23,892 nucleotides of DNA, taken from Chthoniobacteraceae bacterium. Its GTDB lineage: Bacteria; Verrucomicrobiota; Verrucomicrobiia; Chthoniobacterales; Chthoniobacteraceae. The position numbers were made by a program, and so were the translations under genes. Positions within the stretch are counted from its first letter, which is position 1. Every line of letters begins with the position of its first letter. This document shows positions 109-22,504 of this stretch, in pieces. The notes under the pieces were generated by a model. The model had not been told where the DNA came from. It was given only the letters and a program-made list of their open reading frames with translations, and ran no database searches. Location of the stretch: NCBI GenBank assembly GCA_031409655.1, contig JANNXQ010000253.1, forward strand, positions 1 through 23,892, read 5' to 3'.

Positions 109-1788
109 TCACCGCGGGATCACCCACGGGAAGACATACGCCTGGAGCATCACTAGCCCGCCCATGAGTACCGCGAGCGCGAGGCTGTGCCAGAAGACCG
201 CACGCAGGATGTCCCCCGTGCGCGGGCTCTCCCCTGCCCCGCTCGTCGCCGCACCCGCGACCACGATGCTCTGCGCGTCGATCATCTTCCCCATCACCCC
301 GCCGGAGCTGTTCGCCGCCGCGGTCAGGATCGGTGAAAGCCCGAGCTGCTCCGCGCTGACTTTCTGCAAGTTGCCGAAGAGCACATTTGAAGCAGTATCG
401 CTCCCCGTGAGCGCCACGCCCAGCCAGCCGAGCAGCGGCGAAAAGAAAGGGAACCACCAACCGGTGTGCGCAAAGGCGATCCCCATCGTCGTATCCGAGC
501 CGGAGAACCGCGTGGTGAATCCGAGCGCCAGCATCAGCATGATCGTGAGTAAGGAAACCCGCACCCGCCAGAGCACTCGCCCATAGAGTTGCACCAAGGC
601 GACAGGCCGCAACCCCAGTGCCAATCCCCCCACGACGCCCGCGAGCAAGAGCGCGGACCCCGCGGCGGTCAGCCAGTTGAAAACGAATTCGGCCTTCTCC
701 GCCTCCGCGTGCGCGACCACCGGCGGCACGCGTTCGATCCCGAGGTGCAGCAGCGGCACGGGAAACTTCGGTGCCGAGATCGAGTTCAGCGCGTTCTTGA
801 GTGCCGGGATACTCCAGAGGATGACGAAGACGCTGAGCAGCAGCCACGGCAGTAAGGCCCGGAAAGTCGAAGGTCCGCGTTCGATGTTCAGTGTTCGATG
901 TTCGATGTTCGATGTTTTCACCACACCATCCGCGGCAACATCGAACGTCGAACTTCGAACATCGAACGTCGAACCAACGGGCCGCCACACCCGGAGTAGC
1001 AGCGCGAGCGCGCCCATTGCCGCCAGCGCGCTGGCCTGATCGACCAGCCACGGACCGTGAAAATTACTCACCAAGAACTGCGTGATCGCAAAGCTCACCC
1101 CGGTGACGAGACACGCGGGCCAGACTTCGCGCATCCCGCGCCAGCCGACCTGCGCGGCCACGAGCCAGAAAGGGATCAGACACGAAAAGATCGGCAACTG
1201 CCGCCCGACCATCTTGCTCAGAGCAAAGACATCGAGCCCTGTGACCGTGCTCAGCGTCGTGAGCGGGATCCCCAGCGAACCAAACGCCACCGGCGCCGTA
1301 TTCCCGATCAGCGCCAGCTTCGCCGCCTCCAGCGGCTTAAAGCCCAGGCCCACGAGCATCGCCCCGGAGATCGCCACTGGCGCGCCGAAACCCGCGCAGC
1401 CTTCGATGAATGCGCCGAAACAAAACGCAATTAGCAGCGCCTGGATGCGTCGATCGCCGGACAAGGCCGCGATGCGTCGCTTCAGCACCTCAAAGCCACC
1501 GGTCGTCACCGACAGCTCATAGATGAAGATCGCGTTCAGGACGATCCAGCCAATCGGGAAGAGCCCAAATGCCGCGCCATACCCAGCGGAGGCCAGGGCC
1601 AGCGGAGCCGGCATCTGAAAGACAAACACCGCAATCCCCAGAGCGCTCACTAATCCTGCCAGCGCCGCCCAATGCGCCCGCACGTGCGCAAACCCGAGCA
1701 ACCCGAGCAGCAACACCACCGGCAGCGACGCAACGATCGCGGAAAGGAAGACGCCGCCGAGCGGGTCGTAAGTCTGGGGCCAGGGCAC
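109..1788 (-). CDS. lctP: L-lactate permease (LctP/LldP/GlcA family)
   Basis: 559-aa polytopic membrane protein. Family motifs: N-terminal WxQxYDPLG, LLIAFCFGAFIEGCAGFGAPVAI, NTAPVAFGSLGIP, GWLGVALTGSDTASNVLFGNLQ, NSSGGVMGKMIDAQSIVVA. Confidence 0.93.
   Translation of the reverse strand: MPWPQTYDPLGGVFLSAIVASLPVVLLLGLLGFAHVRAHWAALAGLVSALGIAVFVFQMPAPLALASAGYGAAFGLFPIGWIVLNAIFIYELSVTTGGFEVLKRRIAALSGDRRIQALLIAFCFGAFIEGCAGFGAPVAISGAMLVGLGFKPLEAAKLALIGNTAPVAFGSLGIPLTTLSTVTGLDVFALSKMVGRQLPIFSCLIPFWLVAAQVGWRGMREVWPACLVTGVSFAITQFLVSNFHGPWLVDQASALAAMGALALLLRVWRPVGSTFDVRSSTFDVAADGVVKTSNIEHRTLNIERGPSTFRALLPWLLLSVFVILWSIPALKNALNSISAPKFPVPLLHLGIERVPPVVAHAEAEKAEFVFNWLTAAGSALLLAGVVGGLALGLRPVALVQLYGRVLWRVRVSLLTIMLMLALGFTTRFSGSDTTMGIAFAHTGWWFPFFSPLLGWLGVALTGSDTASNVLFGNLQKVSAEQLGLSPILTAAANSSGGVMGKMIDAQSIVVAGAATSGAGESPRTGDILRAVFWHSLALAVLMGGLVMLQAYVFPWVIPR
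879..974. repeat. Heptamer-repeat palindrome (GTTCGAT)n-spacer-(AACRTCG)n, in frame inside lctP
   Basis: 879-916: five GTTCGAT-type units plus GTT. 917-936: 20-bp spacer. 937-974: five AACRTCG-type units plus AAC. Total 96 bp = 32 codons. Confidence 0.9.
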
Positions 1789-2162
1789 GGGCGTAGGAGG
1801 CAGGAGTGGAGCGCCGGATTAGGGCCACTTTCCGCCGCCCCGTCCAGCCTCTCCTCGCAGCGCCCCTATGGCAGCCCGCCGGCGCTCCTCCCCGTCATCA
1901 CCGGAGGACTCCCAGCTCTCCGGCGTCGATCGCAGGGTGCGCATTTCGCAGATTCGCGCGGAAGATCGTTCACCAATTCTCCGAAGGAACCCGACCCTAT
2001 CCGCCTTGCTTGATGGTTCCTGAGCATGGGCCTTTTCAGCAAAGATAATTATTGCTCGCCGTTTTCGGATTAGCTTATGTGTTCCAAAGAGCTTCCGGGA
2101 CACCACCCCGGGACGCTGCCAAACCGGAAACCGCTACGCTAAAAATGTTCGGAGGAGAATGT

Positions 2163-4355
2163 ATGAAATCGTTCCCAAAACGCCTCTCGGTCTGCGGGCT
2201 CCTGCTCGCCCTCCCATTCGCAGGTTGCAAGCCAAAGCCCGTCATCAGCACCGACACGCTCGACGACAAACGGGACGGGCGACCACCAGAAAAGTTTGCG
2301 GAGGTCGTCGCTGATGTCTTCGAGGGCATGGATGCGGGTGCGACCCTCACTGGGGACGAAATCAAAGGGCGCAACTCGTGGAACCTCTGGACCGCCGGCA
2401 ACGAGCAATTCTGGGATAAGATGGCCCGCGAAGGTTTCGGCCTGTTCGACCTTCTCAAGACCATCGACTCGCGCAAACGCGCGCACCGGCTCGAGGAATT
2501 AGGGCTCATCAATCAGCCGGACTTTAAGACCGCCGCGAAGCCGGACCAATACGGCCTCTGGATCGACGAAGGCACCGAGCCCACCGGCATCGACCCGGCG
2601 GTCTATGGTCGCCCGACCGGCGTGATGGGCTTCCGGTTATTCGACAATCCAGACTTTACCGGGGCCGCCGTCGAGAAGTGGAAGCAGCACCTCGATCCCG
2701 CCACGGGCGAGGCAAAGAAGTTTTACGACGACGCGGACTTCGCGGCACAGAAGGATCTCGTGCGCCCGTATCGGGTCGGCGTGTCCTGCGGCGCCTGCCA
2801 CATCGCCTATCACCCCTGTTTCCCGCCGGAGAATCCTGCCGAGCCGAAGTACGAGAACCTCGCGTCGGCCATCGGCAATCAATACATCCGCGAAGGCCGC
2901 ACCTTTGCCCCGAACGTGCGCAAAGGCGGATTTTTCTACGAGATGACCGAGGCGCAGCCGCGCGGCACGTCGGACACCTCCCGCATCGCCACGGATAACA
3001 TCAATAACCCAAACACGATCAATGCGATCTTCATGCTCACCGAGCGGGAGAAGCTTCAGGTCGAGGAAGAAGTTGCGGGCGGCGCGCTTAATTTTCCCGG
3101 CAACACGCCGAAGATGAAAGTGGCGCACATCTTGAAGGACGGCGCGGATTCGATCGGCATCCCCGGCGCGACGATCCGGGTCTTCGTGAATATCGGGATG
3201 TATCACCAGCACTGGCTCCAGCAGCACAATGCGCTGATCGGACTGATCCCCCAGAAGCCCTTCGACATCGCCACCGCCCGGAAACATTCCGTCTTCTGGC
3301 TGGCGACCGAACAAAAGCTCCCGAACATCCGCGACTTCTTCCGCAAGATTCAGCCTTACCGGCTCGAAGATGCCGTCGAAAAAGGGAAGCCTGACGGCAG
3401 AAGTTACATCACTGCGGATGAGGAAAAGATGAAGCGCGGGAAAGTCGCCTTTGCCGAGAACTGCGCGACCTGCCACTCGAGCAAGCAGCCGCCGGAAGGC
3501 GTGGATAAGGAGGATTGGTTCCGGGAGCAAATCCTCACCACCGACTTCCGGAAAGATAACTTCTTCTCCGATGAACGGCGTTACCCGCTCACGAAGATCC
3601 AAACCAACGCCGGCCGCGCCCTCGGCACCAATGCCATGGCCGGACACGTCTGGGATAACTTCTCGTCGAAGACTTACAAGGAACTGCCCGCGGTCGGCAC
3701 GATCAAAGTCTGGAACCCTTACACTAACGCCGAGGAAGACTTTAAGCCGCAAGGCGGCGGCCCCGGCTATTATCGCACTCCGTCGCTCATCAGCATCTGG
3801 TCATCCGCGCCCTTCCTGCACAACAACACCCTCGGCGAGGAAACCATCGACCCCTCCATCGCCGGTCGCATGAAGGCCTTTGAGGACGCCGCGGAGAAAC
3901 TGCTCTGGCCGGAGAGGCGCAAAGACAAGGATTCCATCTGGCGCACCAAAAACGACTGCCAGATCCAGCTCCAGGCCTCGCGCCTGCCGTCCAAGGTCGT
4001 GGCGGTCTTGCGCGCCGGAGGTCACATCGAGGAAGACCCGGATGGTGCCGAGTTTTTCCGCGTCGGCCACATTCCGCAAGGCACGCCGATCAACCTGCTC
4101 GGAAACGTGGACCCGAAGGCCGACCACTTGGCTATGGCGAAGCTCTTCATCAAGCTGAAAGTCACTCTCGCAAAGATCAAGGCCGGGGGCCTCGACGGCG
4201 ATGCCGCGAAAGAGGAACTGAAAAGGAACGTCGCTCCGGCCCTCCTCAAGGTCAGCAAGTGTCCGGACCTGGTCACCGATCGCGGCCACACCTTTGGCCG
4301 CGATCTTCCGGACAACGACAAACGCGCACTCATCGAATACCTGAAAACCCTCTAA
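2163..4355 (+). CDS. Lipoprotein di-heme c cytochrome, RoxA/MauG-like family
   Basis: GGAGGA at 2151-2156 precedes ATG 2163. Lipoprotein signal MKSFPKRLSVCGLLLALPFAG-C. Two CxxCH motifs (CGACH ~2787, CATCH ~3462), YYRTPSLISIWSSAPFLHNN, and C-terminal GHTFG...DKRALIEYLKTL. Confidence 0.8.
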   Translation: MKSFPKRLSVCGLLLALPFAGCKPKPVISTDTLDDKRDGRPPEKFAEVVADVFEGMDAGATLTGDEIKGRNSWNLWTAGNEQFWDKMAREGFGLFDLLKTIDSRKRAHRLEELGLINQPDFKTAAKPDQYGLWIDEGTEPTGIDPAVYGRPTGVMGFRLFDNPDFTGAAVEKWKQHLDPATGEAKKFYDDADFAAQKDLVRPYRVGVSCGACHIAYHPCFPPENPAEPKYENLASAIGNQYIREGRTFAPNVRKGGFFYEMTEAQPRGTSDTSRIATDNINNPNTINAIFMLTEREKLQVEEEVAGGALNFPGNTPKMKVAHILKDGADSIGIPGATIRVFVNIGMYHQHWLQQHNALIGLIPQKPFDIATARKHSVFWLATEQKLPNIRDFFRKIQPYRLEDAVEKGKPDGRSYITADEEKMKRGKVAFAENCATCHSSKQPPEGVDKEDWFREQILTTDFRKDNFFSDERRYPLTKIQTNAGRALGTNAMAGHVWDNFSSKTYKELPAVGTIKVWNPYTNAEEDFKPQGGGPGYYRTPSLISIWSSAPFLHNNTLGEETIDPSIAGRMKAFEDAAEKLLWPERRKDKDSIWRTKNDCQIQLQASRLPSKVVAVLRAGGHIEEDPDGAEFFRVGHIPQGTPINLLGNVDPKADHLAMAKLFIKLKVTLAKIKAGGLDGDAAKEELKRNVAPALLKVSKCPDLVTDRGHTFGRDLPDNDKRALIEYLKTL

Positions 4356-4845: not shown

Positions 4846-6636
4846 ATGATGGATCGCCGCCCGCTCATCGAATGGGTGCCGGCGCGCTGGCGCGGGCCGC
4901 TGGCGATTGCCATCGGGATCGGGGCGACGGTCAGCTTGTACTTCCTCGGGCGGCTGTATCGCGATCAACCGGTGACTTACGCGACACCGGAGGAGCACTT
5001 CAAATATGGCTCGACTGGCGGGGAGCGGCTCTCGGGCTTCCCTTACTGGATCTGGCAGGTGCTGCCCGCGCTTTTCCCGGAGTATCTGCCGGGCGGAAAG
5101 TATCTGCCGGAGACGCCGTATGCGCCGATGGGTTTCATCTACGAATCGGGCAAGGCACTGCCCATCGGCGTCTCGCAGCGCAATGTGCAGGGGATGGACC
5201 GCGTCTTCCTGAATTGTGCGGTCTGCCACGTGGGCACCTGGCGCGCAAAGCCAGAGCATAAGCCCAACGTCGTGCTCGGCATGGGCGCGAATACGGTCGA
5301 TCTCCAGCAGTTCGAACGGTTCCTTTTCCAGTGCGTGACCGACGAGCGCTTCACGCCGAATCGCATTCTTACCGCGATCGAGACGATCGGCGGAAAGCTG
5401 GATCGGTTTGACGAGGAAGCGCTGCGCAATCTCGGCGTCTATCTGATGCGTGACCGCGTGCTCCTTCTGCGCGACCGCTTCAGCTTCATGGATCGCGAGC
5501 CGGACTCCGGGCCGGGGCGCGTCGATACCTTTAATCCGCCCAAGGTGCTGATGAACTTCCCCATGCACAAAGTCCCGGAGCGCGAGTGGGTGGGAAATTG
5601 CGACCTGCCTTCGATCTGGCTCCAGCGTCCGCGCGAAGGCATGTGGCTGCACTGGGACGGGAATTGCAACCGGGTGCAGGAGCGCAACCGCAGCGCGGCC
5701 TTTGGCACCGGCGCACAGCCGCCGTCGCTCGATCGCCCGCTCATGAAACGCGTCGAGAACTTCATCATGGACGCCACCCCGCCCGCATTTCCCTTCCCCA
5801 TCGACCAAACCAAAGCAGCGCGCGGCGAGCCGCTCTATGGAAAGCATTGCGCGAGCTGCCACGGAAAAAACGGACGCGACTTCGCGGGCGAGTTCGTCGG
5901 CAAAGTAACACCGATCGACGCACCCAAGCTCCGCACCGATCGGTGGCGGCTCGACAGTTACACCCACGAACTCGCCGCCGGACAAAACCAGCTCTACGCC
6001 GAATACGGCGACGAACGCTTTTCCCACTTCCGCAAAACCTTCGGCTACGCCAATGCCCCGCTCGACGGCATCTGGCTGCGCGCGCCCTATCTGCACAATG
6101 GCTCCGTGCCGACGCTGCGCGACTTACTGGAGCCAGCCGCGCAACGCCCGAAAGTCTTCCATCGCAGCTACGACGTCTTCGACCCCGTGCGGGTCGGCTG
6201 GGTCTCGGACGTGGCGGTAGAGCCCACCGCCTCCGCAAAGACAAATCCCCAGCTCGCTGGTCGTCGTTACTTTCGCTTCGACACCCGCGCGATCCCCGGG
6301 GAGCAGACCGGCGCCTTTGCGAAAGTCACTGCGATCGATGCAGCGGCGCGCGTCATCACGCTCGACCGTCCGCTCACCCGCGAAACGATCATCGTGAAGG
6401 TGACGGACGCCGCCGGAAAGGTGCTGCTCTGGGACATCCCCGTCGCACACAGCGCCAACGGGGAAATGACGATCACCCTCGCCGAGTTACCCCCCGAACT
6501 CACCGTGGGCTGCGGCCTCGACTACAGCACGCCGCGCGAGCGCAACGAGGGTAACAGCAACCAAGGCCACGAGTACGGCACGGACCTCCCAGCCGAAGAC
6601 AAGGACGCCATCGTGGAGTTCCTGAAGACTTTCTGA
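4846..6636 (+). CDS. Membrane-anchored di-heme c cytochrome, RoxA-like
   Basis: N-terminal TM helix, HFKYGSTG, CAVCH and CASCH heme motifs, YANAPLDGIWLRAPYLHNGSVPTL, GNSNQGHEYG...AIVEFLKTF. Confidence 0.85.
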   Translation: MMDRRPLIEWVPARWRGPLAIAIGIGATVSLYFLGRLYRDQPVTYATPEEHFKYGSTGGERLSGFPYWIWQVLPALFPEYLPGGKYLPETPYAPMGFIYESGKALPIGVSQRNVQGMDRVFLNCAVCHVGTWRAKPEHKPNVVLGMGANTVDLQQFERFLFQCVTDERFTPNRILTAIETIGGKLDRFDEEALRNLGVYLMRDRVLLLRDRFSFMDREPDSGPGRVDTFNPPKVLMNFPMHKVPEREWVGNCDLPSIWLQRPREGMWLHWDGNCNRVQERNRSAAFGTGAQPPSLDRPLMKRVENFIMDATPPAFPFPIDQTKAARGEPLYGKHCASCHGKNGRDFAGEFVGKVTPIDAPKLRTDRWRLDSYTHELAAGQNQLYAEYGDERFSHFRKTFGYANAPLDGIWLRAPYLHNGSVPTLRDLLEPAAQRPKVFHRSYDVFDPVRVGWVSDVAVEPTASAKTNPQLAGRRYFRFDTRAIPGEQTGAFAKVTAIDAAARVITLDRPLTRETIIVKVTDAAGKVLLWDIPVAHSANGEMTITLAELPPELTVGCGLDYSTPRERNEGNSNQGHEYGTDLPAEDKDAIVEFLKTF

Positions 6637-6640
6637 CCCC

Positions 6641-8137
6641 ATGAACACGACCGCCAATCGCCGCTGGAGACTCGCCACCGCCGTCCTGGTCGCCGTCCTC
6701 GCCATCGTCGGCATCTTCACCTGGTGGGAGCTTTTCCGCGTGGTGCCGCAGGACGATGCGATCCTCAAAGACGCGGCGATGAAATTCAAATACGGCTCGC
6801 TCGGCTCCGAGGGCGACCGCGGGCTCCCGTATCTCATCTGGCTGGTACTGCCGCGCGTCTTTCCCGATCTGCTGCCCGGCCCCGGCGGTTACAAGGCCTT
6901 CGGTGTCGTCTGGGAGGAAGGCCAGGAAATGCCCGTGGGCTTTTCCAAAAAGACCATCGGCGTCTTCCCGCGCGTCACGAATAACTGCGCGCTCTGCCAC
7001 GCCACCACCTGGCGCGAAAGCGAGGACAGCCCGATCCACGTCCAGATCGCCGGCGGCGCGCACACCACGGATGTCCAGGGCATGATCCGCTTTCTCTCCC
7101 GCGCCGCGCAGGATCCGCGCTTCAGCGCCGCGACGCTCATGCCCGAGATCGAGCAGGTGAGCAGCAATGCCTACGGCAATGGCGGCCTCTCCTGGCTCGA
7201 CCGGCAGATCTATCGTTACCTGCTCATCCCTTTCACCCGCATGGGCCTGCGCGAGCAGCAGCGGCTCTTTGCCTGGATGGAGCATGAACCGAACGGGACG
7301 AAGAAACCCGACTGGGGCCCCGGGCGCGACGATCCGATGAACCTCACGAAGTACTTCACGACGCAACTGCCCGTGGACGCAACCGTGGGCCAGGCGGACT
7401 TCCCTTCCATCTGGAATCTCAAGGTGCGGCGCGGACCGGGGCTCTTGCTAAATTGGAGCGGCGACACGCCATCCACGCTCTCGGTGCTCATGGATTCGGC
7501 GCTCGGACTCGGCGCGCCACCGCAGCCGTGGTTCGTGGAGCGCATGCACGAACTCGACGCCTGGCTCGGCGAATTTCCGCCGCCGAAATATCCCTTTCCC
7601 ATCGACCCGGCGCTCGTCGCGCAAGGCCAGCCGCTCTACGCGCAATACTGCGCCGAGTGCCATGACGTCGGCGCGAAATACACGAACAAGATCATCCCGC
7701 TCGCCGAGATCGGCACCGACCGCGAGCGCATGCTTTCCTGGAATGGAGAAGCCGCGAAGGAAGCGAATCGCCGGGTGCGCGAGATGGGCATCGACCGCCC
7801 GCCGATGATCGAAACGAACCCGACCGGCTATCAATCGCCGCCGCTCGATGGCCTCTGGCTGCGCGCCCCCTATCTGCATCACGGCACCGTGCCCACGCTC
7901 TGGGACTTACTGCTGGCGGAGGAAAAGCGACCGCAGCAGTTCCATCGCGGCTACGATGTCTTCGATCCGGTGAAGGTGGGCTTTGAATCCGACACGCCGA
8001 TGGCGCGCCGCCGCGGCTTCCTCCTCGACACCACGCAGCGCGGCAATGGCAACGGCGGCCACAGTGGCGCGAGATACGGCACAGAACTCAGCGACCCGCA
8101 GAGGCGCGCGCTCGTGGAGTACCTGAAGACGCTATGA
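6641..8137 (+). CDS. Membrane-anchored di-heme c cytochrome, RoxA-like (paralog of 4846-6636)
   Basis: N-terminal TM helix, KFKYGSLG, CALCH and CAECH, YQSPPLDGLWLRAPYLHHGTVPTL, GNGNGGH...ALVEYLKTL. Starts 4 bp after the previous stop. Confidence 0.85.
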   Translation: MNTTANRRWRLATAVLVAVLAIVGIFTWWELFRVVPQDDAILKDAAMKFKYGSLGSEGDRGLPYLIWLVLPRVFPDLLPGPGGYKAFGVVWEEGQEMPVGFSKKTIGVFPRVTNNCALCHATTWRESEDSPIHVQIAGGAHTTDVQGMIRFLSRAAQDPRFSAATLMPEIEQVSSNAYGNGGLSWLDRQIYRYLLIPFTRMGLREQQRLFAWMEHEPNGTKKPDWGPGRDDPMNLTKYFTTQLPVDATVGQADFPSIWNLKVRRGPGLLLNWSGDTPSTLSVLMDSALGLGAPPQPWFVERMHELDAWLGEFPPPKYPFPIDPALVAQGQPLYAQYCAECHDVGAKYTNKIIPLAEIGTDRERMLSWNGEAAKEANRRVREMGIDRPPMIETNPTGYQSPPLDGLWLRAPYLHHGTVPTLWDLLLAEEKRPQQFHRGYDVFDPVKVGFESDTPMARRRGFLLDTTQRGNGNGGHSGARYGTELSDPQRRALVEYLKTL

Positions 8138-10730: not shown

Positions 10731-10841
10731 AACATCGAACGTCGAACGTCGAACATCGAACGAGCCCCCAAGCGCTGCACGCAAGTGCGGCTCCCGCGGC
10801 TGTATTCGATGTTCGATGTTCGATGTTCGACGTTCGACGTT
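10731..10841. repeat. Intergenic heptamer-repeat palindrome (AACRTCG)n-spacer-(TTCGAYG)n
   Basis: 10731-10761: four AACRTCG units plus AAC. About 43-bp spacer. 10805-10841: five TTCGAYG units plus TT. Same unit as 879-974, located between convergent genes. Confidence 0.9.
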
Positions 10842-10850
10842 CTCCCTGCC

Positions 10851-18972: not shown

Positions 18973-19530
18973 TCAGGCCCGGCCGAGATACCCGCCGTTC
19001 GTCGTCGAGATCTTCACCATCTCGCCCTCTTTGATGAAGAGTGGCACCGTCACGCTGAGACCCGTCTCCATGATCGCGGGCTTCTGCACATTGTTCGCGC
19101 TATCGCCGCGCACGCCGTCGGCACTTTCGGTTACCTTCAGCGTCACCTGCGCCGGCAGTTCGAGATTCGCGGCCTTCTGCTCCACATAGAGCACGTTCAC
19201 CTTGAGATTTTCCACGAGGTACATCTTCGCATCGCCGACGAAACTTTCGTCAAACGAGATCGTCTCAAATGTCTCCGGGTCCATGAAGTGGTAGCCCGTG
19301 TTGTCCTTGTAAGAATACTCAAGCTCCTTCCGCTCGACCTCCACGGAGTCCACCTTGTCCGTCGAACCAAAACGGATATCCGCGCTTTTCCCCGTGCCGA
19401 TGTAGCGAATGATGACCTGCACGAAGGCGCGCAGATTTCCCGGGGTGCGATGCATCACTTCGAGCACGATCGCGGGGTTGCCGTTGTAGCGGATACACAT
19501 GCCTTTGCGGAGATCGTTGGCGTTGGCCAT
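18973..19530 (-). CDS. efp: Elongation factor P (185 aa) with PGN loop
   Basis: MANANDLRKG, HRTPGNLRAFVQ, YHFMDPETFE, GVRGDSA, KPAIMETGLSVTVPLFIKEGE, GGYLGRA. The true start is 19530; the upstream extension in the ORF track is not EF-P-like. Confidence 0.95.
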   Translation of the reverse strand: MANANDLRKGMCIRYNGNPAIVLEVMHRTPGNLRAFVQVIIRYIGTGKSADIRFGSTDKVDSVEVERKELEYSYKDNTGYHFMDPETFETISFDESFVGDAKMYLVENLKVNVLYVEQKAANLELPAQVTLKVTESADGVRGDSANNVQKPAIMETGLSVTVPLFIKEGEMVKISTTNGGYLGRA

Positions 19531-19713
19531 TGGCGGGAGAAAGTTGGGAGTTGGGGTTGAGACTGGAGAGCCGGTTTTTCGGAAAGGGGCGGGATGATTG
19601 ACCATCCACGCCCGGCTGGCAACCCCACAGTTGCCGGCGTCACGAGGGCGGGCCGTGATCGCCCGCGAATGGCGGCGCGTCCCACCACACCGCCTCACCC
19701 GCCGGAGGAACTG

Positions 19714-20096
19714 GGCTGCAAGTGGTGCGATGCGCGCTCGTACCCACTGCGGTTCGGCCTCCGAGTCGGGGCGAGCCTCTCCAATTCCGGCAAGCCGGGC
19801 TCCGAGTGCGCGCGAGTCGGTCTCCGACTTGATGCGAGCCGCCTTCCGATGCGGTGCCGACAGCCTCACGCCCGAAAGTTTCGCCCTAGAACATGGAAAA
19901 CCCGGCTCCAAGTGCGTGCGCGCCGGGCTCCGAGTGCGTGCGAGATGGCCTCCCACCTTGCGCAGACGGCCTCCCAGTGCGCGCAAGATGTCCCTGACCG
20001 TGTGCAGGCGGGCTCCAAGTGCTTGCAAGATGCCGTTCCACCTTGTGCAGATGGGCTCCGAGTGAGCGGGCGCCGGGGTCGAAGATGTGGAAAGGG
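19714..20096 (+). repeat. Degenerate tandem array of 17-18 units of 20-22 bp (consensus ~GGCTCCRAGTGCGYGCRAGAYG)
   Basis: Unit starts read by eye: 19714, 19735, 19757, 19777, 19798, 19820, 19842, 19863, 19883, 19904, 19926, 19948, 19969, 19991, 20011, 20033, 20054, 20076. Mean period about 21.3 bp. Confidence 0.8.
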
Positions 20097-20126
20097 AGGG
20101 CATGGACCTTGCAGCGGAGGCCACGC

Positions 20127-20873
20127 ATGAATGACAGAGACATCCGCCGCTACGAACGCGCCACGCGCGTTGTCACCTTCGGCATCAGCAATGACGCCGA
20201 CTTCACTGCCGACAGTGTTGCCCGCGTCCACTTTGGCAATATAACCGCCAAACTCGCCCAACTCGACCTCGCCAAAACCGGCCAGACTCCCTCCCGCGTG
20301 AGCAAGGAAACCCTGCTCGACGCCCTCATGCTCGACTTCGACCGCCTCGCCGACACCGCCCGGTCCATCGAGAAAAAGAGTGTAGAAACCGGCTTCGCCG
20401 CCCCTTACGCCGTGCCCTCCCGCGCGGAAATCGCCATCACCACCCAGGCCGACAAACTCTGCGGCCTGCTCGAAGACCAGGACGACGACTCCGCCGCAGA
20501 AAAGACCGCCAAAGCCGCCCTCCGCGCGCGTTTCCTCGCCTTCGAGATCGACGCAAATATCTTCCAGCGCCTGCGCGACGACCGCGACGCCATCGACGAC
20601 GCCAACAACCACAACCGCAACGAAGTCAGTGACGGCATCGAAAACACCGCGCTCATCGGTCGGCTCCTCGGTGAGATCAATGACGAGGTCGGCTTCCTCA
20701 ACACCATCATGCGCAACAAATACGAGCGCCAGCCCGAGAAGCTGCGCGCCTGGGAGAGCGCCAGCCGAGTCGAGCGCGCTCCGGTGCGGGCGAAGAAGGA
20801 TAACCCGCCTGTCATCACGGTTCCAACGCCGACCCCGAGCCCCGCACCGCAGCCCGTCCTCCAGCCCGCGTAA
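20127..20873 (+). CDS. Hypothetical alpha-helical protein (248 aa) with Pro-rich tail
   Basis: GGAGG at 20116-20120 precedes ATG 20127. Sequence MNDRDIRRYERATRVVTFG...MRNKYERQPEKLRAWESASRVERAP...PTPTPSPAPQP, with strong C-ending codon bias. Confidence 0.82.
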   Translation: MNDRDIRRYERATRVVTFGISNDADFTADSVARVHFGNITAKLAQLDLAKTGQTPSRVSKETLLDALMLDFDRLADTARSIEKKSVETGFAAPYAVPSRAEIAITTQADKLCGLLEDQDDDSAAEKTAKAALRARFLAFEIDANIFQRLRDDRDAIDDANNHNRNEVSDGIENTALIGRLLGEINDEVGFLNTIMRNKYERQPEKLRAWESASRVERAPVRAKKDNPPVITVPTPTPSPAPQPVLQPA

Positions 20874-20897
20874 GCCTCGCCACCAGTTGATTCAAGA

Positions 20898-20930
20898 AAC
20901 GGCACCCGCCGAAGGGCGGCGGGTGCCGTT
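20898..20930. terminator. Perfect 14-bp stem hairpin (terminator-like or REP-like)
   Basis: aacggcacccgccg-aaggg-cggcgggtgccgtt, 24 bp after the stop at 20873. No long U tract on the + strand. Confidence 0.55.
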
Positions 20931-20945
20931 GATCGTCGAGCCATC

Positions 20946-21119
20946 GAGTTGCGCAAAGCTTCCGCTCCGCGCGGCGAAGGTCATCACTTGGAAGCTCTGG
21001 CCCGCCGCGGGTTGAAAACCGTTCACCCACGTCACGCACAAGGTGCCATGCAAGGTCGCGGTGCCCGTGACGATGAGCCGGTCGCACTGGCTGCCCGCGG
21101 TGAGGCCGCCGAGTTCGAT
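20946..21119 (-). pseudogene. Remnant of a surface-protein / autotransporter-type beta-helix cap domain
   Basis: IELGGLTAGSQCDRLIVTGTATLHGTLCVTWVNGFQPAAGQSFQVMTFAARSGSFAQL matches the IELGG...YDRLxVTGxAxLxGTLxV...GFxPxxGxxF pattern, but is only ~58 aa and lacks flanking domains. Confidence 0.65.
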
Positions 21120-21229
21120 GTCCCGCCCGGCTCCGGGAAGCTGAGCGTCCTTGCCCTTTGGGGAAAAACCGGACAGGCCCAAGGCGCGCTTGAAATCTCC
21201 CGGCGATTCCGCGCAAGTTGCGCCGTGCC

Positions 21230-21559
21230 ATGATCGACCGCACCCGCATCCTGAAATACGCGCAAGCCGTCGCGCGCGAGTTTCATCCCGAGAGAATCGT
21301 CCTCTTCGGCTCCTACGCCTACGGCACGCCCACGGAGGATTCGGACGTGGACTTGCTCGTCGTCATGCCGCACGAGGGACATCAGGCTTACCAGGCCGCG
21401 GCCATCGAACTCAAAGTGCCCGCCGGGTTTCCGCTCGACTTAATGGTTCGCTCACCGGAGCGCATCCGCAACCGGCTCGCCGCAGGCGACGGATTCGTCC
21501 GGGAGATTCTCGATCGCGGATCGTCCCTCTATGAATCCGGAAACGGCGAAGTGGGTTAG
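21230..21559 (+). CDS. Minimal nucleotidyltransferase (MNT) antitoxin
   Basis: PERIVLFGSYAYGTPTEDSDVDLLVV contains the GSx10DxD motif. 109 aa; overlaps the downstream HEPN gene. Confidence 0.88.
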   Translation: MIDRTRILKYAQAVAREFHPERIVLFGSYAYGTPTEDSDVDLLVVMPHEGHQAYQAAAIELKVPAGFPLDLMVRSPERIRNRLAAGDGFVREILDRGSSLYESGNGEVG

Positions 21560-21917
21560 CAAAGCGGAGGGCGACTTCCACCCCGCGCGCCGCGAACTGC
21601 GCGCACGCAAAGCGCCGAACTACGACGCCGCGTGCTTCCATGCGCAGCAAGGCTCCGAGAAGTATCTCAAGGCCGTGCTCATCGAGGCGCATCGGCCCTT
21701 CTCCAAGACCCACGATCTCCTCCTGTTGCTCGATGACTGCCTGCCCGTGGCGCCGCTGCTCGACGCCTTCCGGCCCTCCCTGGCGATCCTCAAGAATTTC
21801 GCGGTTCACATTCGTTATCCCGGCGACGACGCCACCCGTACGGAAGCGCGCGACGTGGTGCGCCGTGCGGAAGCGGTCCGCACCGCCGTGCGCGCACTTC
21901 TGGGGTGCGCCGGCTGA
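21531..21917 (+). CDS. HEPN domain protein
   Basis: WVSKAEGDF, ACFHAQQGSEKYLKA, KTHDL and RYPG motifs typical of PF05168-type HEPN. Paired with the MNT gene. Confidence 0.88.
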   Translation: MNPETAKWVSKAEGDFHPARRELRARKAPNYDAACFHAQQGSEKYLKAVLIEAHRPFSKTHDLLLLLDDCLPVAPLLDAFRPSLAILKNFAVHIRYPGDDATRTEARDVVRRAEAVRTAVRALLGCAG

Positions 21918-21971
21918 TCTCCCCGCGCTTTCGGAGACAGCGATATGAGTTGCAAACGCGAGGTGGCGCCA

Positions 21972-22292
21972 TGCCAAGGCCTGCGCGATGAGCAAACGGT
22001 CAAACGGATCGTCGTGATGGAACGGCTGACGCCGATGGGCGTGAACGTGCGGCACCAGGATGGGGAGCAGCAGAATATTGGAAGCATCGGGCCGGGCGGG
22101 CAACAGTTGCTCGAAGGGTTCCGGCAGAGTCAGTTTTCCCAGCGTATCCTTGATGCTGATTTCCCAAAGGGCCGCGGGGCTGACAAACAGCGTGTTCTGC
22201 GGATCCTGAATGCACGCCAGCGCCGTTGCGCTGAGCTTGCTACTGCCCGCGAAGAACCAAAGCAGCGCATGGGCGTCCAGAATCGCTTTCAC
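21972..22292 (-). pseudogene. vapC: VapC/PIN toxin, C-terminally disrupted
   Basis: ILDAHALLW, SPAALWEISIK, HDDPFDRLLIAQA. Similarity stops after residue ~107 with no LVS/TxD strand, and the frame then runs antisense through the HEPN gene. The GTG start overlaps the antitoxin TGA. Confidence 0.7.
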
Positions 22293-22504
22293 GGACGATC
22301 GTCGGCAAACTCGGCCAGCGGCGCGTCGAAATCCGCCGCTAGTTCGATGCCCGGCACGGAGCCGAATCCGGGGCGCACCGTAGCCTGCGCTGGTTGCTCG
22401 TCAGCAGCCTTGGCCTTTAGAAAGTTCAAGTAATGCCACACCTCGCGCAACAAGGGCTCCGGCTGTTGGGAGACCTCGGTGATGAGAAGTTGCTGGATTG
22501 ACAT
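22289..22504 (-). CDS. Antitoxin (DUF2281/VapB-like)
   Basis: 71 aa: PEPLLREVWHYLNFL...RPGFGS...IELAADFDAPL. GTGA overlap with the PIN gene. Confidence 0.8.
   Translation of the reverse strand: MSIQQLLITEVSQQPEPLLREVWHYLNFLKAKAADEQPAQATVRPGFGSVPGIELAADFDAPLAEFADDRP

What the first reader, a model, noticed from the sequence alone, without database searches (positions are those of the whole stretch)
19714..20873. Array of ~18 degenerate ~21-bp units joined to an orphan helical-protein gene: candidate array-plus-protein system
Seen: between divergent efp and the 248-aa ORF lies a ~380-bp array. Example units are ggctccgagtgcgcgcgagtcg (19798), ggctccaagtgcgtgcgcgccg (19904), ggctccgagtgcgtgcgagatg (19926) and ggctccaagtgcttgcaagatg (20011). 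Unit length varies from 20 to 22 bp, which breaks codon phase and argues against a protein repeat. The array ends ~20 bp before the GGAGG RBS, and the gene is closed by a 14-bp hairpin. It is not CRISPR, since there are no identical repeats with unique spacers. Inference: the mean period of ~21.3 bp is two helical turns, and two sub-motifs (CTCCRAG and GCRAG) lie roughly one turn apart. This suggests a phased binding array (iteron- or centromere-like) for the adjacent protein, or a repetitive leader RNA processed into short RNAs.
Basis: partly seen in the sequence, partly recalled or inferred. Interest (0 to 1): 0.8.

Follow-up and report, generated by a model that had tools for sequence, protein, structure and literature searches.

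The report
Phased repeat array with partner gene
The repeat array is real and non-coding, and it is one copy of a widespread, apparently undescribed pairing in which a row of 21-22-base units always points toward one family of all-helical proteins of unknown function, most likely as a docking strip on the DNA for that protein.

Summary
The array is real: 14-15 units of 21-22 bp at 19758-20075 (0 of 1000 shuffles as periodic). The 248-aa protein is not an orphan. It has hundreds of unnamed relatives, an all-helical model and no known family or fold. Of 95 non-redundant relatives, 58 have a 21/22-bp array in the 500 bp upstream, against 1 of 72 far-upstream controls, across several phyla. The units share a family motif (core GTGCRAR) found only once in this genome. 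All seven motif-matching arrays found downstream of the gene are inverted, so the motif points at the gene. In most relatives the gene's sigma-70-type promoter lies between array and gene at variable distance. That, with no RNA fold and frame-breaking spacings, argues against a leader RNA, a peptide or a fixed operator. This copy is atypical: it lacks that promoter. Two other gene families in the genome have their own arrays, with the same period but other motifs. Best reading (0.45): a polar, two-turn-phased DNA platform for the cognate protein, in an accessory module often beside defence genes. Binding is inferred, not shown. About a third of relatives, and most distant ones, lack an array.

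The parts
19758..20075 (+). Core array of 14-15 degenerate 21-22-bp units; 22- and 21-bp types alternate (43- and 85-bp higher periods); two poor units at 19861-19904
19714..19757 (+). Two weak, in-register units at the gene-distal end
   Evidence: profile scores 2.0 and 4.7
20076..20119 (+). Short array-to-gene spacer. It lacks the family's sigma-70-type promoter (motif score 0.1) and the terminal motif seen in 9 of 52 arrays; possibly two decayed units
20116..20120 (+). GGAGG ribosome-binding-site-like sequence
20127..20873 (+). Gene for the 248-aa all-helical partner protein (family A); residues 1-about 218 ordered, Pro-rich tail of low confidence
20898..20930 (.). Perfect 14-bp hairpin, 5-nt loop; T-run on the minus strand; terminator-like
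18973..19530 (-). efp: chromosomal neighbour, not part of the module
   Evidence: Pfam; four relatives' efp loci show no match to array or gene
19594..19622 (-). Sigma-70-type promoter of efp; shared synteny with relatives ends just past it
21224..21917 (+). Nucleotidyltransferase plus HEPN pair (MNT-HEPN toxin-antitoxin type): variable cargo downstream
   Evidence: Pfam
21945..22504 (-). PIN-domain gene plus VapB-like gene: second toxin-antitoxin-type pair
   Evidence: NCBIfam TA_VapB E 9e-12, below its cut-off

Best explanation
The array and the gene form a two-part accessory module. The array works as DNA: a polar row of sites, one every two helical turns, so that all sites face one side of the helix. 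The neighbouring helical protein loads on it cooperatively to build a nucleoprotein filament or wrap, which most simply limits or tunes its own expression and that of genes downstream. SHOWN: array, period, family-specific motif, fixed orientation toward the gene, promoter position, patchy multi-copy spread, defence-rich downstream neighbours. INFERRED: that the array acts as DNA, that this protein is its reader, and what the complex does. This copy has lost or replaced the usual promoter segment and may be decaying.
For: Linkage: 58 of 95 non-redundant loci (this one included) have an upstream array, against 5 of 88 downstream, 1 of 72 far upstream, 2 of 73 far downstream and 1 of 108 coding controls. 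Period: 619 of 676 spacings are 21 or 22 bp, and the period holds in two other families with different motifs. The motif follows the protein family rather than the host: the family-A profile matches arrays in Verrucomicrobiota, Acidobacteriota and Accumulibacter-like loci, finds only this locus in G000, scores 11 or less on the 20 other arrays of G000 and passes on no family-B or family-C upstream region. Array similarity rises with protein identity, rho 0.54 (kin not independent). Polarity: 6 of 93 downstream regions match on the opposite strand and 0 of 93 on the same strand; a seventh inverted array lies 3.8 kb downstream. Gene-less arrays were found only in genomes that hold the gene elsewhere (3 cases). 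Not coding: 42 of 52 arrays have frame-breaking spacings. Not structured: mean z -0.04 and +0.22. The protein keeps basic residues in helix 1 (R4, R7, R8, R14) and at the C-terminus (K198, R217, R221).
Against: No DNA-binding domain was recognised: no Pfam, NCBIfam, PHROG, PADLOC or PDB-sequence family for this protein. Median pI is 6.4 and this protein's is 5.3. 37 of 95 loci score below the array threshold upstream; about nine of these have an array elsewhere. Distant relatives mostly lack arrays: 1 of 13 scored copies in G164 and 4 of 11 in other genomes. Family C (fn3) shows no detectable homology (hhalign 0.7%) yet has the same kind of array, which could mean a shared host reader. A motif that tracks the protein is also expected from plain co-inheritance. 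The inverted cases fall in two subclades of a quick tree, so they may be only one to three events. The array-to-promoter distance is 26-332 bp, so simple operator action is unlikely.
Confidence: 0.45

Rival explanations
1. The array is transcribed, from either strand, into a repetitive RNA that the protein binds or that is cut into unit-length RNAs.
For: Fixed orientation and constant unit length are also traits of RNA arrays. Units grow more alike toward the gene in 35 of 44 upstream and 5 of 6 downstream arrays. The arginine-rich first helix could bind RNA (inference). In this copy the array runs up to the RBS with no promoter between. Subirana and Messeguer raise transcription of constant-size repeats as an alternative (PMC8161180).
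Against: The promoter lies downstream of the array (20 of 37 TTGVCA sites have a matching -10 element, shifted controls 0-3); a divergent promoter of this type occurs in 1 of 46. In L045 and L060 a terminator-like hairpin separates gene and array. No fold on either strand; no Rfam match in the array. Units are homogenised copies, and 10 tested units match the rest of the genome no better than shuffled units.
Confidence: 0.2
2. The array is an upstream control region read by a host factor (a nucleoid protein or activator), and the helical protein is only the regulated product.
For: It lies upstream of a sigma-70-type promoter in most loci. An IHF-like motif (consensus recalled) follows the last unit in 7 of 52 arrays, against a shuffle mean of 1.0 and maximum of 4. 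The unrelated family C has the same architecture.
Against: Motifs differ between families within one genome but hold across phyla within a family. Linkage survives inversion and 0.8-3.8 kb of inserted genes. There is no fixed distance to the -35 element. A sigma-54 signature fits only 5 of 22 sites.
Confidence: 0.15
3. The array is one end, or a recombination platform, of a small mobile or gene-capturing element; the protein is its architectural factor and a host recombinase supplies catalysis.
For: Patchy and multi-copy: 41 of 151 family genomes, up to 18 copies. Many unrelated insertion sites, with efp relatives empty. Restriction, toxin-antitoxin or other defence genes are the nearest downstream gene in 15 of 68 loci, against 5 of 68 upstream. 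Gene-less arrays sit between ordinary genes. Inward-pointing 22-bp sites recall Tn7 and Mu ends (recalled).
Against: No locus has arrays on both sides. No integrase or transposase travels with the gene; only one IS110 and one IS66 appear among 136 neighbours. G164 copies are diverged (median 32% identity). Nothing was found on plasmids, phages or viral contigs.
Confidence: 0.12
4. The array is a neutral satellite, made by slippage and carried along with the gene.
For: Nested 43/85-bp periods point to slippage. Arrays are often lost. At least 20 other arrays of this period lie in G000.
Against: The period stays at 21-22 bp over protein identities down to about 28% and in the probably homologous family B (hhalign 83%), while the sequence changes. 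Orientation is fixed.
Confidence: 0.08

Closest known systems
Constant-size bacterial tandem repeats of 20-23 nt (Subirana and Messeguer; PMC8161180: abstract, passages and section 3.3 read)
   Same: Non-coding, fixed 20-23-nt period, short conserved core; the authors guess that a protein polymerises on them.
   Different: Described as species-specific families with no sequence conservation; the passages read name no partner gene ('upstream' occurs 0 times). Here each array type is tied to one gene family, oriented toward it, with a motif shared across phyla. The 2020 J Bacteriol paper could not be read.
Plasmid iterons with Rep initiator (P1, F, RK2, R6K, pSC101; recalled)
   Same: Direct repeats at about two helical turns beside the gene of the presumed binding protein; an IHF-like site in a minority.
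   Different: Chromosomal, not found on plasmids; no Rep family match; GC-rich; units far more degenerate; the array can lie inverted downstream.
Type II/III partition centromeres (parC with ParR, tubC with TubR; recalled)
   Same: Tandem sites that could nucleate a protein filament.
   Different: No partition NTPase partner among nearest neighbours; the protein is 230-250 aa with no ribbon-helix-helix or HTH match.
CRISPR, TIGR and VIPR RNA arrays (bioRxiv 10.64898/2026.10.21.760802: outline, passages and section 2.3 read)
   Same: An oriented array beside one protein family, with a conservation gradient along the array.
   Different: Their periods are 60-79, 18 and 5 nt; section 2.3 names no 21-22-nt class. 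No fixed-repeat/unique-spacer alternation and no Cas match here.
Tn7 and Mu transposon ends (22-bp transposase sites; recalled)
   Same: About 22-bp oriented sites pointing inward.
   Different: No transposase; 9-24 units rather than a few; never at both ends.
NCBIfam PQLLE family (NF052641) and Pfam DUF6261
   Same: Uncharacterised proteins that may be distant kin.
   Different: Only 2 of 53 aligned members hit PQLLE, best E 0.0017; DUF6261 appears only as an Atlas neighbour at 0.87, on 32% of that cluster.

Membership tests
CRISPR-Cas | Identical repeats alternating with unique spacers, period about 60-79 nt | tested here: not met
   Periods 21/22/43/85, homogenised units
CRISPR-Cas | cas genes beside the array | tested here: not met
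   No Cas family among 136 nearest neighbours in Pfam or PADLOC; only nearest genes scanned
TIGR-Tas / VIPR | Array period of 18 nt (TIGR) or 5 nt (VIPR) | tested here: not met
   Autocorrelation over 50 arrays: lag 5 -0.007, lag 18 -0.036, lag 21 +0.178
TIGR-Tas / VIPR | Nop-domain (Tas) or Vipr fold | tested here: inconclusive
   No Pfam hit; not among listed fold-search rows
Iteron replicon | Rep initiator encoded beside the repeats | tested here: not met
   No Rep family for the protein or its neighbours
Iteron replicon | Location on a plasmid or phage replicon | tested here: not met
   Next to efp; no match in plasmids, phages or viral contigs
Iteron replicon | Origin activity | not testable with these tools
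   Needs a replication assay
Partition centromere | Adjacent ParA, ParM or TubZ NTPase | tested here: not met
   None as a recurring neighbour; one Mrp/NUBPL-type gene in 136
Partition centromere | Adaptor binds the repeats | not testable with these tools
   Needs EMSA or ChIP
Sigma-54 enhancer region | GG-N10-GC promoter | tested here: not met
   5 of 22 TTGGCA sites, against a sigma-70-type -10 in 20 of 37 sites
Constant-size 20-23-nt bacterial satellites | Non-coding tandem repeat with a fixed 20-23-nt unit | tested here: met
   652 of 676 spacings are 20-23 bp; 42 of 52 arrays break frame
Constant-size 20-23-nt bacterial satellites | Species-specific sequence, not conserved between distant taxa | tested here: not met
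   One profile matches arrays in several phyla
PQLLE family (NF052641) | Score above the family cut-off | tested here: not met
   No hit for this protein; weak hits in 2 of 53 relatives
Four-helix-bundle (23S rRNA IVP) proteins | Shared fold | tested here: inconclusive
   2rld_A Z 8.6, rmsd 3.1, 94 aligned; within the noise for helical bundles

The most novel reading that the evidence does not exclude
This is one member of an undescribed class of cognate protein-array systems. Several helical-protein families each read their own polar, two-turn-phased array and assemble on it into an ordered nucleoprotein structure that seeds, controls or moves defence islets. The array grows or is homogenised from its gene-facing end. 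This would supply the missing readers for the unexplained constant-size bacterial repeats.
Probability: 0.3. Interest if true: 0.88.

Novelty: categorically new. Interest (0 to 1): 0.7.

Why it matters
Bacterial repeats with a fixed 20-23-nt period have been catalogued without a known reader (PMC8161180). This locus names a candidate reader, a motif, an orientation rule and built-in specificity controls: families B and C in the same genome. That makes the open question testable with one purified protein and three DNA probes. If each protein reads its own array, the pairs would be a set of mutually independent DNA-scaffolding parts with a protein unlike known DNA-binding families. The tie to defence-rich islets suggests a role in how such islets are formed or controlled. 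Earlier notes of this scan describe similar pairings, so the class is not new to the scan; the inverted orientation, the family-specific motifs within one genome and the gene-less arrays are what this locus adds.

Tried and rejected
Protein repeat or leader peptide: rejected; 42 of 52 arrays break frame, although 36 of 52 keep some open frame, as expected in GC-rich DNA. Regulator of efp: rejected; 4 of 4 related efp loci compared show no match to array or gene (4 of the 5 fetched). Guide-like units: 10 units match the genome at 17-18 of 21 bases, shuffled units at 16-18. One-turn sub-period: absent family-wide. Sigma-54 promoter: 5 of 22. Rfam: nothing in the array. Fold searches: no Foldseek match at E <= 0.001 in PDB or viral models; best VIA Z 9.1, below the level trusted for helical bundles. 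Fused longer forms: none scored among 8000 candidates, which is weak evidence. Homodimer prediction: no verdict. RNA runs: none was listed, so no reads were laid. A single-protein scan of metagenomes found nothing; the alignment scan did. A second unit pattern matched 0 of 151 genomes and was uninformative. Of 9 pattern-hit loci examined, 5 were chance hits. The careful tree did not finish; the quick tree is used. Literature searches found no description of the pairing; the 2020 J Bacteriol paper was not available, and supplements were not read, including the closed ones of the bioRxiv preprint, whose cluster tables could hold this family.

Full report
OBSERVATION. Over 19714-20090 the mean identity at lags 21, 22, 42, 43, 64 and 85 is 0.380; dinucleotide shuffles give 0.277 +/- 0.010 and 0 of 1000 reach it. 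TRF finds period 43 at 19917-20064. A strict chain counts 14 units at 19777-20075 and a lenient one 17; the outermost units and two central ones are poor. The hairpin at 20898-20930 is a perfect 14-bp stem with its T-run on the minus strand. The window is contig C253 of G000; the closest named locus is from a Chthoniobacteraceae genome (L102, 69%).

THE PROTEIN. The ORF 20127-20873 encodes 248 aa. It has 186 relatives in the 90% library and 406 among 50% representatives; names, where given, are 'hypothetical' or 'uncharacterized'. Pfam gives no hit above cut-off for it and only scattered weak hits for 111 relatives. NCBIfam gives a weak PQLLE hit in 2 of 53; PHROGs (one weak hit in 53), PDB sequences and PADLOC give nothing useful. 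AlphaFold2 yields eight helices, mean pLDDT 85, with a low-confidence tail. Conserved basic residues lie in helix 1 and near the C-terminus; the middle is acidic, median pI 6.4, this protein 5.3.

THE PAIRING RECURS. From 181 loci I kept 139 with the gene start in view and 108 after removing those 90% or more identical. A period-21/22 score above 0.10 occurs in 58 of 95 upstream 500-bp windows (this locus included; 13 loci had too little DNA), 5 of 88 downstream, 1 of 72 far upstream, 2 of 73 far downstream and 1 of 108 coding windows. Hosts include Verrucomicrobiota, Acidobacteriota and Pseudomonadota. Of 676 unit spacings, 414 are 21 bp and 205 are 22 bp; 42 of 52 arrays break frame.

A FAMILY MOTIF WITH A DIRECTION. 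A 21-column profile trained on the 58 upstream arrays has a pyrimidine run, a G run and the core GTGCRAR. It passes in 47 of 100 upstream regions on the gene's strand (circular, as it was trained there), 1 of 100 on the other strand, 0 of 93 downstream regions on the gene's strand and 6 of 93 on the opposite strand; 0 of 150 random windows pass. Whole-locus scans add L076 (direct, 2 kb upstream) and L140 (inverted, 3.8 kb downstream). L071 has a downstream array that the profile does not score. So the motif points at the gene from either side, even with toxin-antitoxin or other genes in between. Flipping promoter plus gene in place would give this; the inverted loci sit in two subclades of a quick tree, so few events are involved. 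Units become more alike toward the gene in 35 of 44 upstream and 5 of 6 downstream arrays, but not in this copy (rho -0.05).

WHERE THE PROMOTER IS. A CTTGgCA-type motif scores above 8 bits within 140 bp of the start in 69 of 102 loci (log-likelihood 313, shuffled 157); this copy scores 0.1. Of 37 loci with TTGVCA, 20 have A and T at positions 2 and 6 of a -10 box 17-18 bp on, against 0-3 in shifted controls; a sigma-54 spacing fits 5 of 22; a divergent promoter of this type occurs in 1 of 46; the last unit lies 26-332 bp from the -35 box in 23 loci. The array is therefore normally outside the gene's transcript. Here only 51 bp separate it from the ATG, against 84-446 bp in the other 45 proximal upstream arrays. 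Neither strand folds better than shuffles, here (z +1.3 and +0.5) or over 52 arrays.

SPECIFICITY. The profile finds only this locus in G000. Twenty other arrays of about this period in G000 score 11 or less; I did not identify a partner for most. Two lie before other unknown genes. For family B (L189), 17 of 19 upstream regions have arrays against 0 of 20 downstream; for family C (L187, fn3 domain; 30 loci, not all matches, fetched), 20 of 27 against 0 of 30; none passes the family-A profile (loci not dereplicated). Family B is probably a distant homolog (hhalign 83%, E 1e-5, 199 columns); family C shows no detectable homology. A two-unit pattern matched 10 of 151 family genomes; it has low sensitivity and misses this copy. 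Of nine hit loci examined, four were true arrays; three of these have no gene nearby (L224, L231, L233; L231 ends about 450 bp before its contig end) and five were chance. All true arrays were in genomes among the 41 of 151 that hold the gene.

CONTEXT. The efp loci of three same-genus and one same-family genome match the window only up to 19594-19636. With my own ORF heuristic, the nearest downstream gene is restriction, toxin-antitoxin or other defence type in 12 of 68 loci by Pfam (E <= 1e-8) and 10 of 68 by PADLOC, 15 in union. The nearest upstream gene is so in 1 of 68 (E <= 1e-10) and 4 of 68 (one an ABC transporter), 5 in union; most named upstream genes are housekeeping. No relative was found in viral contigs, plasmids or phages.

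AGAINST AN OBLIGATE SYSTEM. 37 of 95 loci lack a proximal upstream array. G164 holds 18 diverged copies (median 32% identity), and only 1 of 13 scored has an array; other distant copies give 4 of 11. Kinship alone can explain why array similarity tracks protein identity (rho 0.54).

MECHANISM. Conserved period with drifting sequence, tolerance of mixed 21/22 spacing, position outside the transcript and lack of RNA structure point to DNA-level function (inference). A motif that follows the protein family across phyla and differs between families in one cell points to the neighbouring protein as reader (inference). I put the cognate DNA platform at 0.45, array RNA at 0.20, host-read control region at 0.15, mobile end at 0.12 and neutral satellite at 0.08.

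KNOWN SYSTEMS. It works like an iteron or centromere array if the best reading holds, but fails their tested features, and those of CRISPR, TIGR and VIPR. The repeat size class is in print (PMC8161180: abstract, passages and section 3.3; PMC8625621: first third). The 2026 intergenic survey names no 21-22-nt class in section 2.3. Nine searches found no description of the gene pairing. The 2020 paper by the same authors and all supplements were not seen. Iteron, centromere, Tn7/Mu and IHF features are recalled, not taken from a call. Earlier scan notes describe similar modules; they are leads, and a look-up by this sequence found none.

VERDICT. Real, widespread, apparently undescribed module; mechanism inferred. 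Interest 0.7.

Noticed in passing
window 879-974 and 10731-10842: Two gene-less intergenic pairs of inverted heptamer arrays (about five 7-bp units per arm); many similar heptamer pairs occur elsewhere in G000.
   Followed up: no
G000 C66, C256, C124, C178, C108, C75, C22, C38, C241, C86, C128, C132, C271, C69, C208 and others: About 20 further ~21-bp arrays with other motifs; for most I identified no partner gene. Those on C124, C277, C128 and C86 look alike by eye.
   Followed up: partly
L189:1132-1833 (G000 C273) and L278-L297: Family B: a probable distant homolog with its own 21/42-bp upstream arrays in 17 of 19 loci.
   Followed up: partly
L187:1453-2073 (G000 C277) and L298-L327: Family C: small protein with a C-terminal fn3 domain and upstream arrays in 20 of 27 loci.
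   Followed up: partly
L188:1313-2104 (G000 C187): A 263-aa unknown protein directly after another 21-bp array; no Pfam hit and no similarity to family A.
   Followed up: no
G164 (L246-L263): One genome with 18 highly diverged family-A-like genes, nearly all without arrays.
   Followed up: partly
G000 C45:14741-14878 (L015): A 46-codon fragment about 70% identical to the protein: a truncated second copy.
   Followed up: no
window 20892-21182 (minus strand): A 96-codon ORF with no Pfam hit that converges on the gene and ends at the hairpin; it looks like a remnant of a larger gene.
   Followed up: partly
window 4846-8137: Two tandem RoxA-like cytochrome c genes, after another cytochrome c gene at 2052-4355.
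   Followed up: no
gene-facing end of 9 of 52 arrays (e.g. L104, L108, L114); also gene-less L224, L231, L233: A short T-rich motif ending in CTGT closes the array (5' control 0, reverse control 3); absent in this window.
   Followed up: partly
L102:1-155: The closest relative with DNA has what looks like an insertion-sequence end about 55 bp before its start codon (by eye), so it too lacks the usual upstream region.
   Followed up: no
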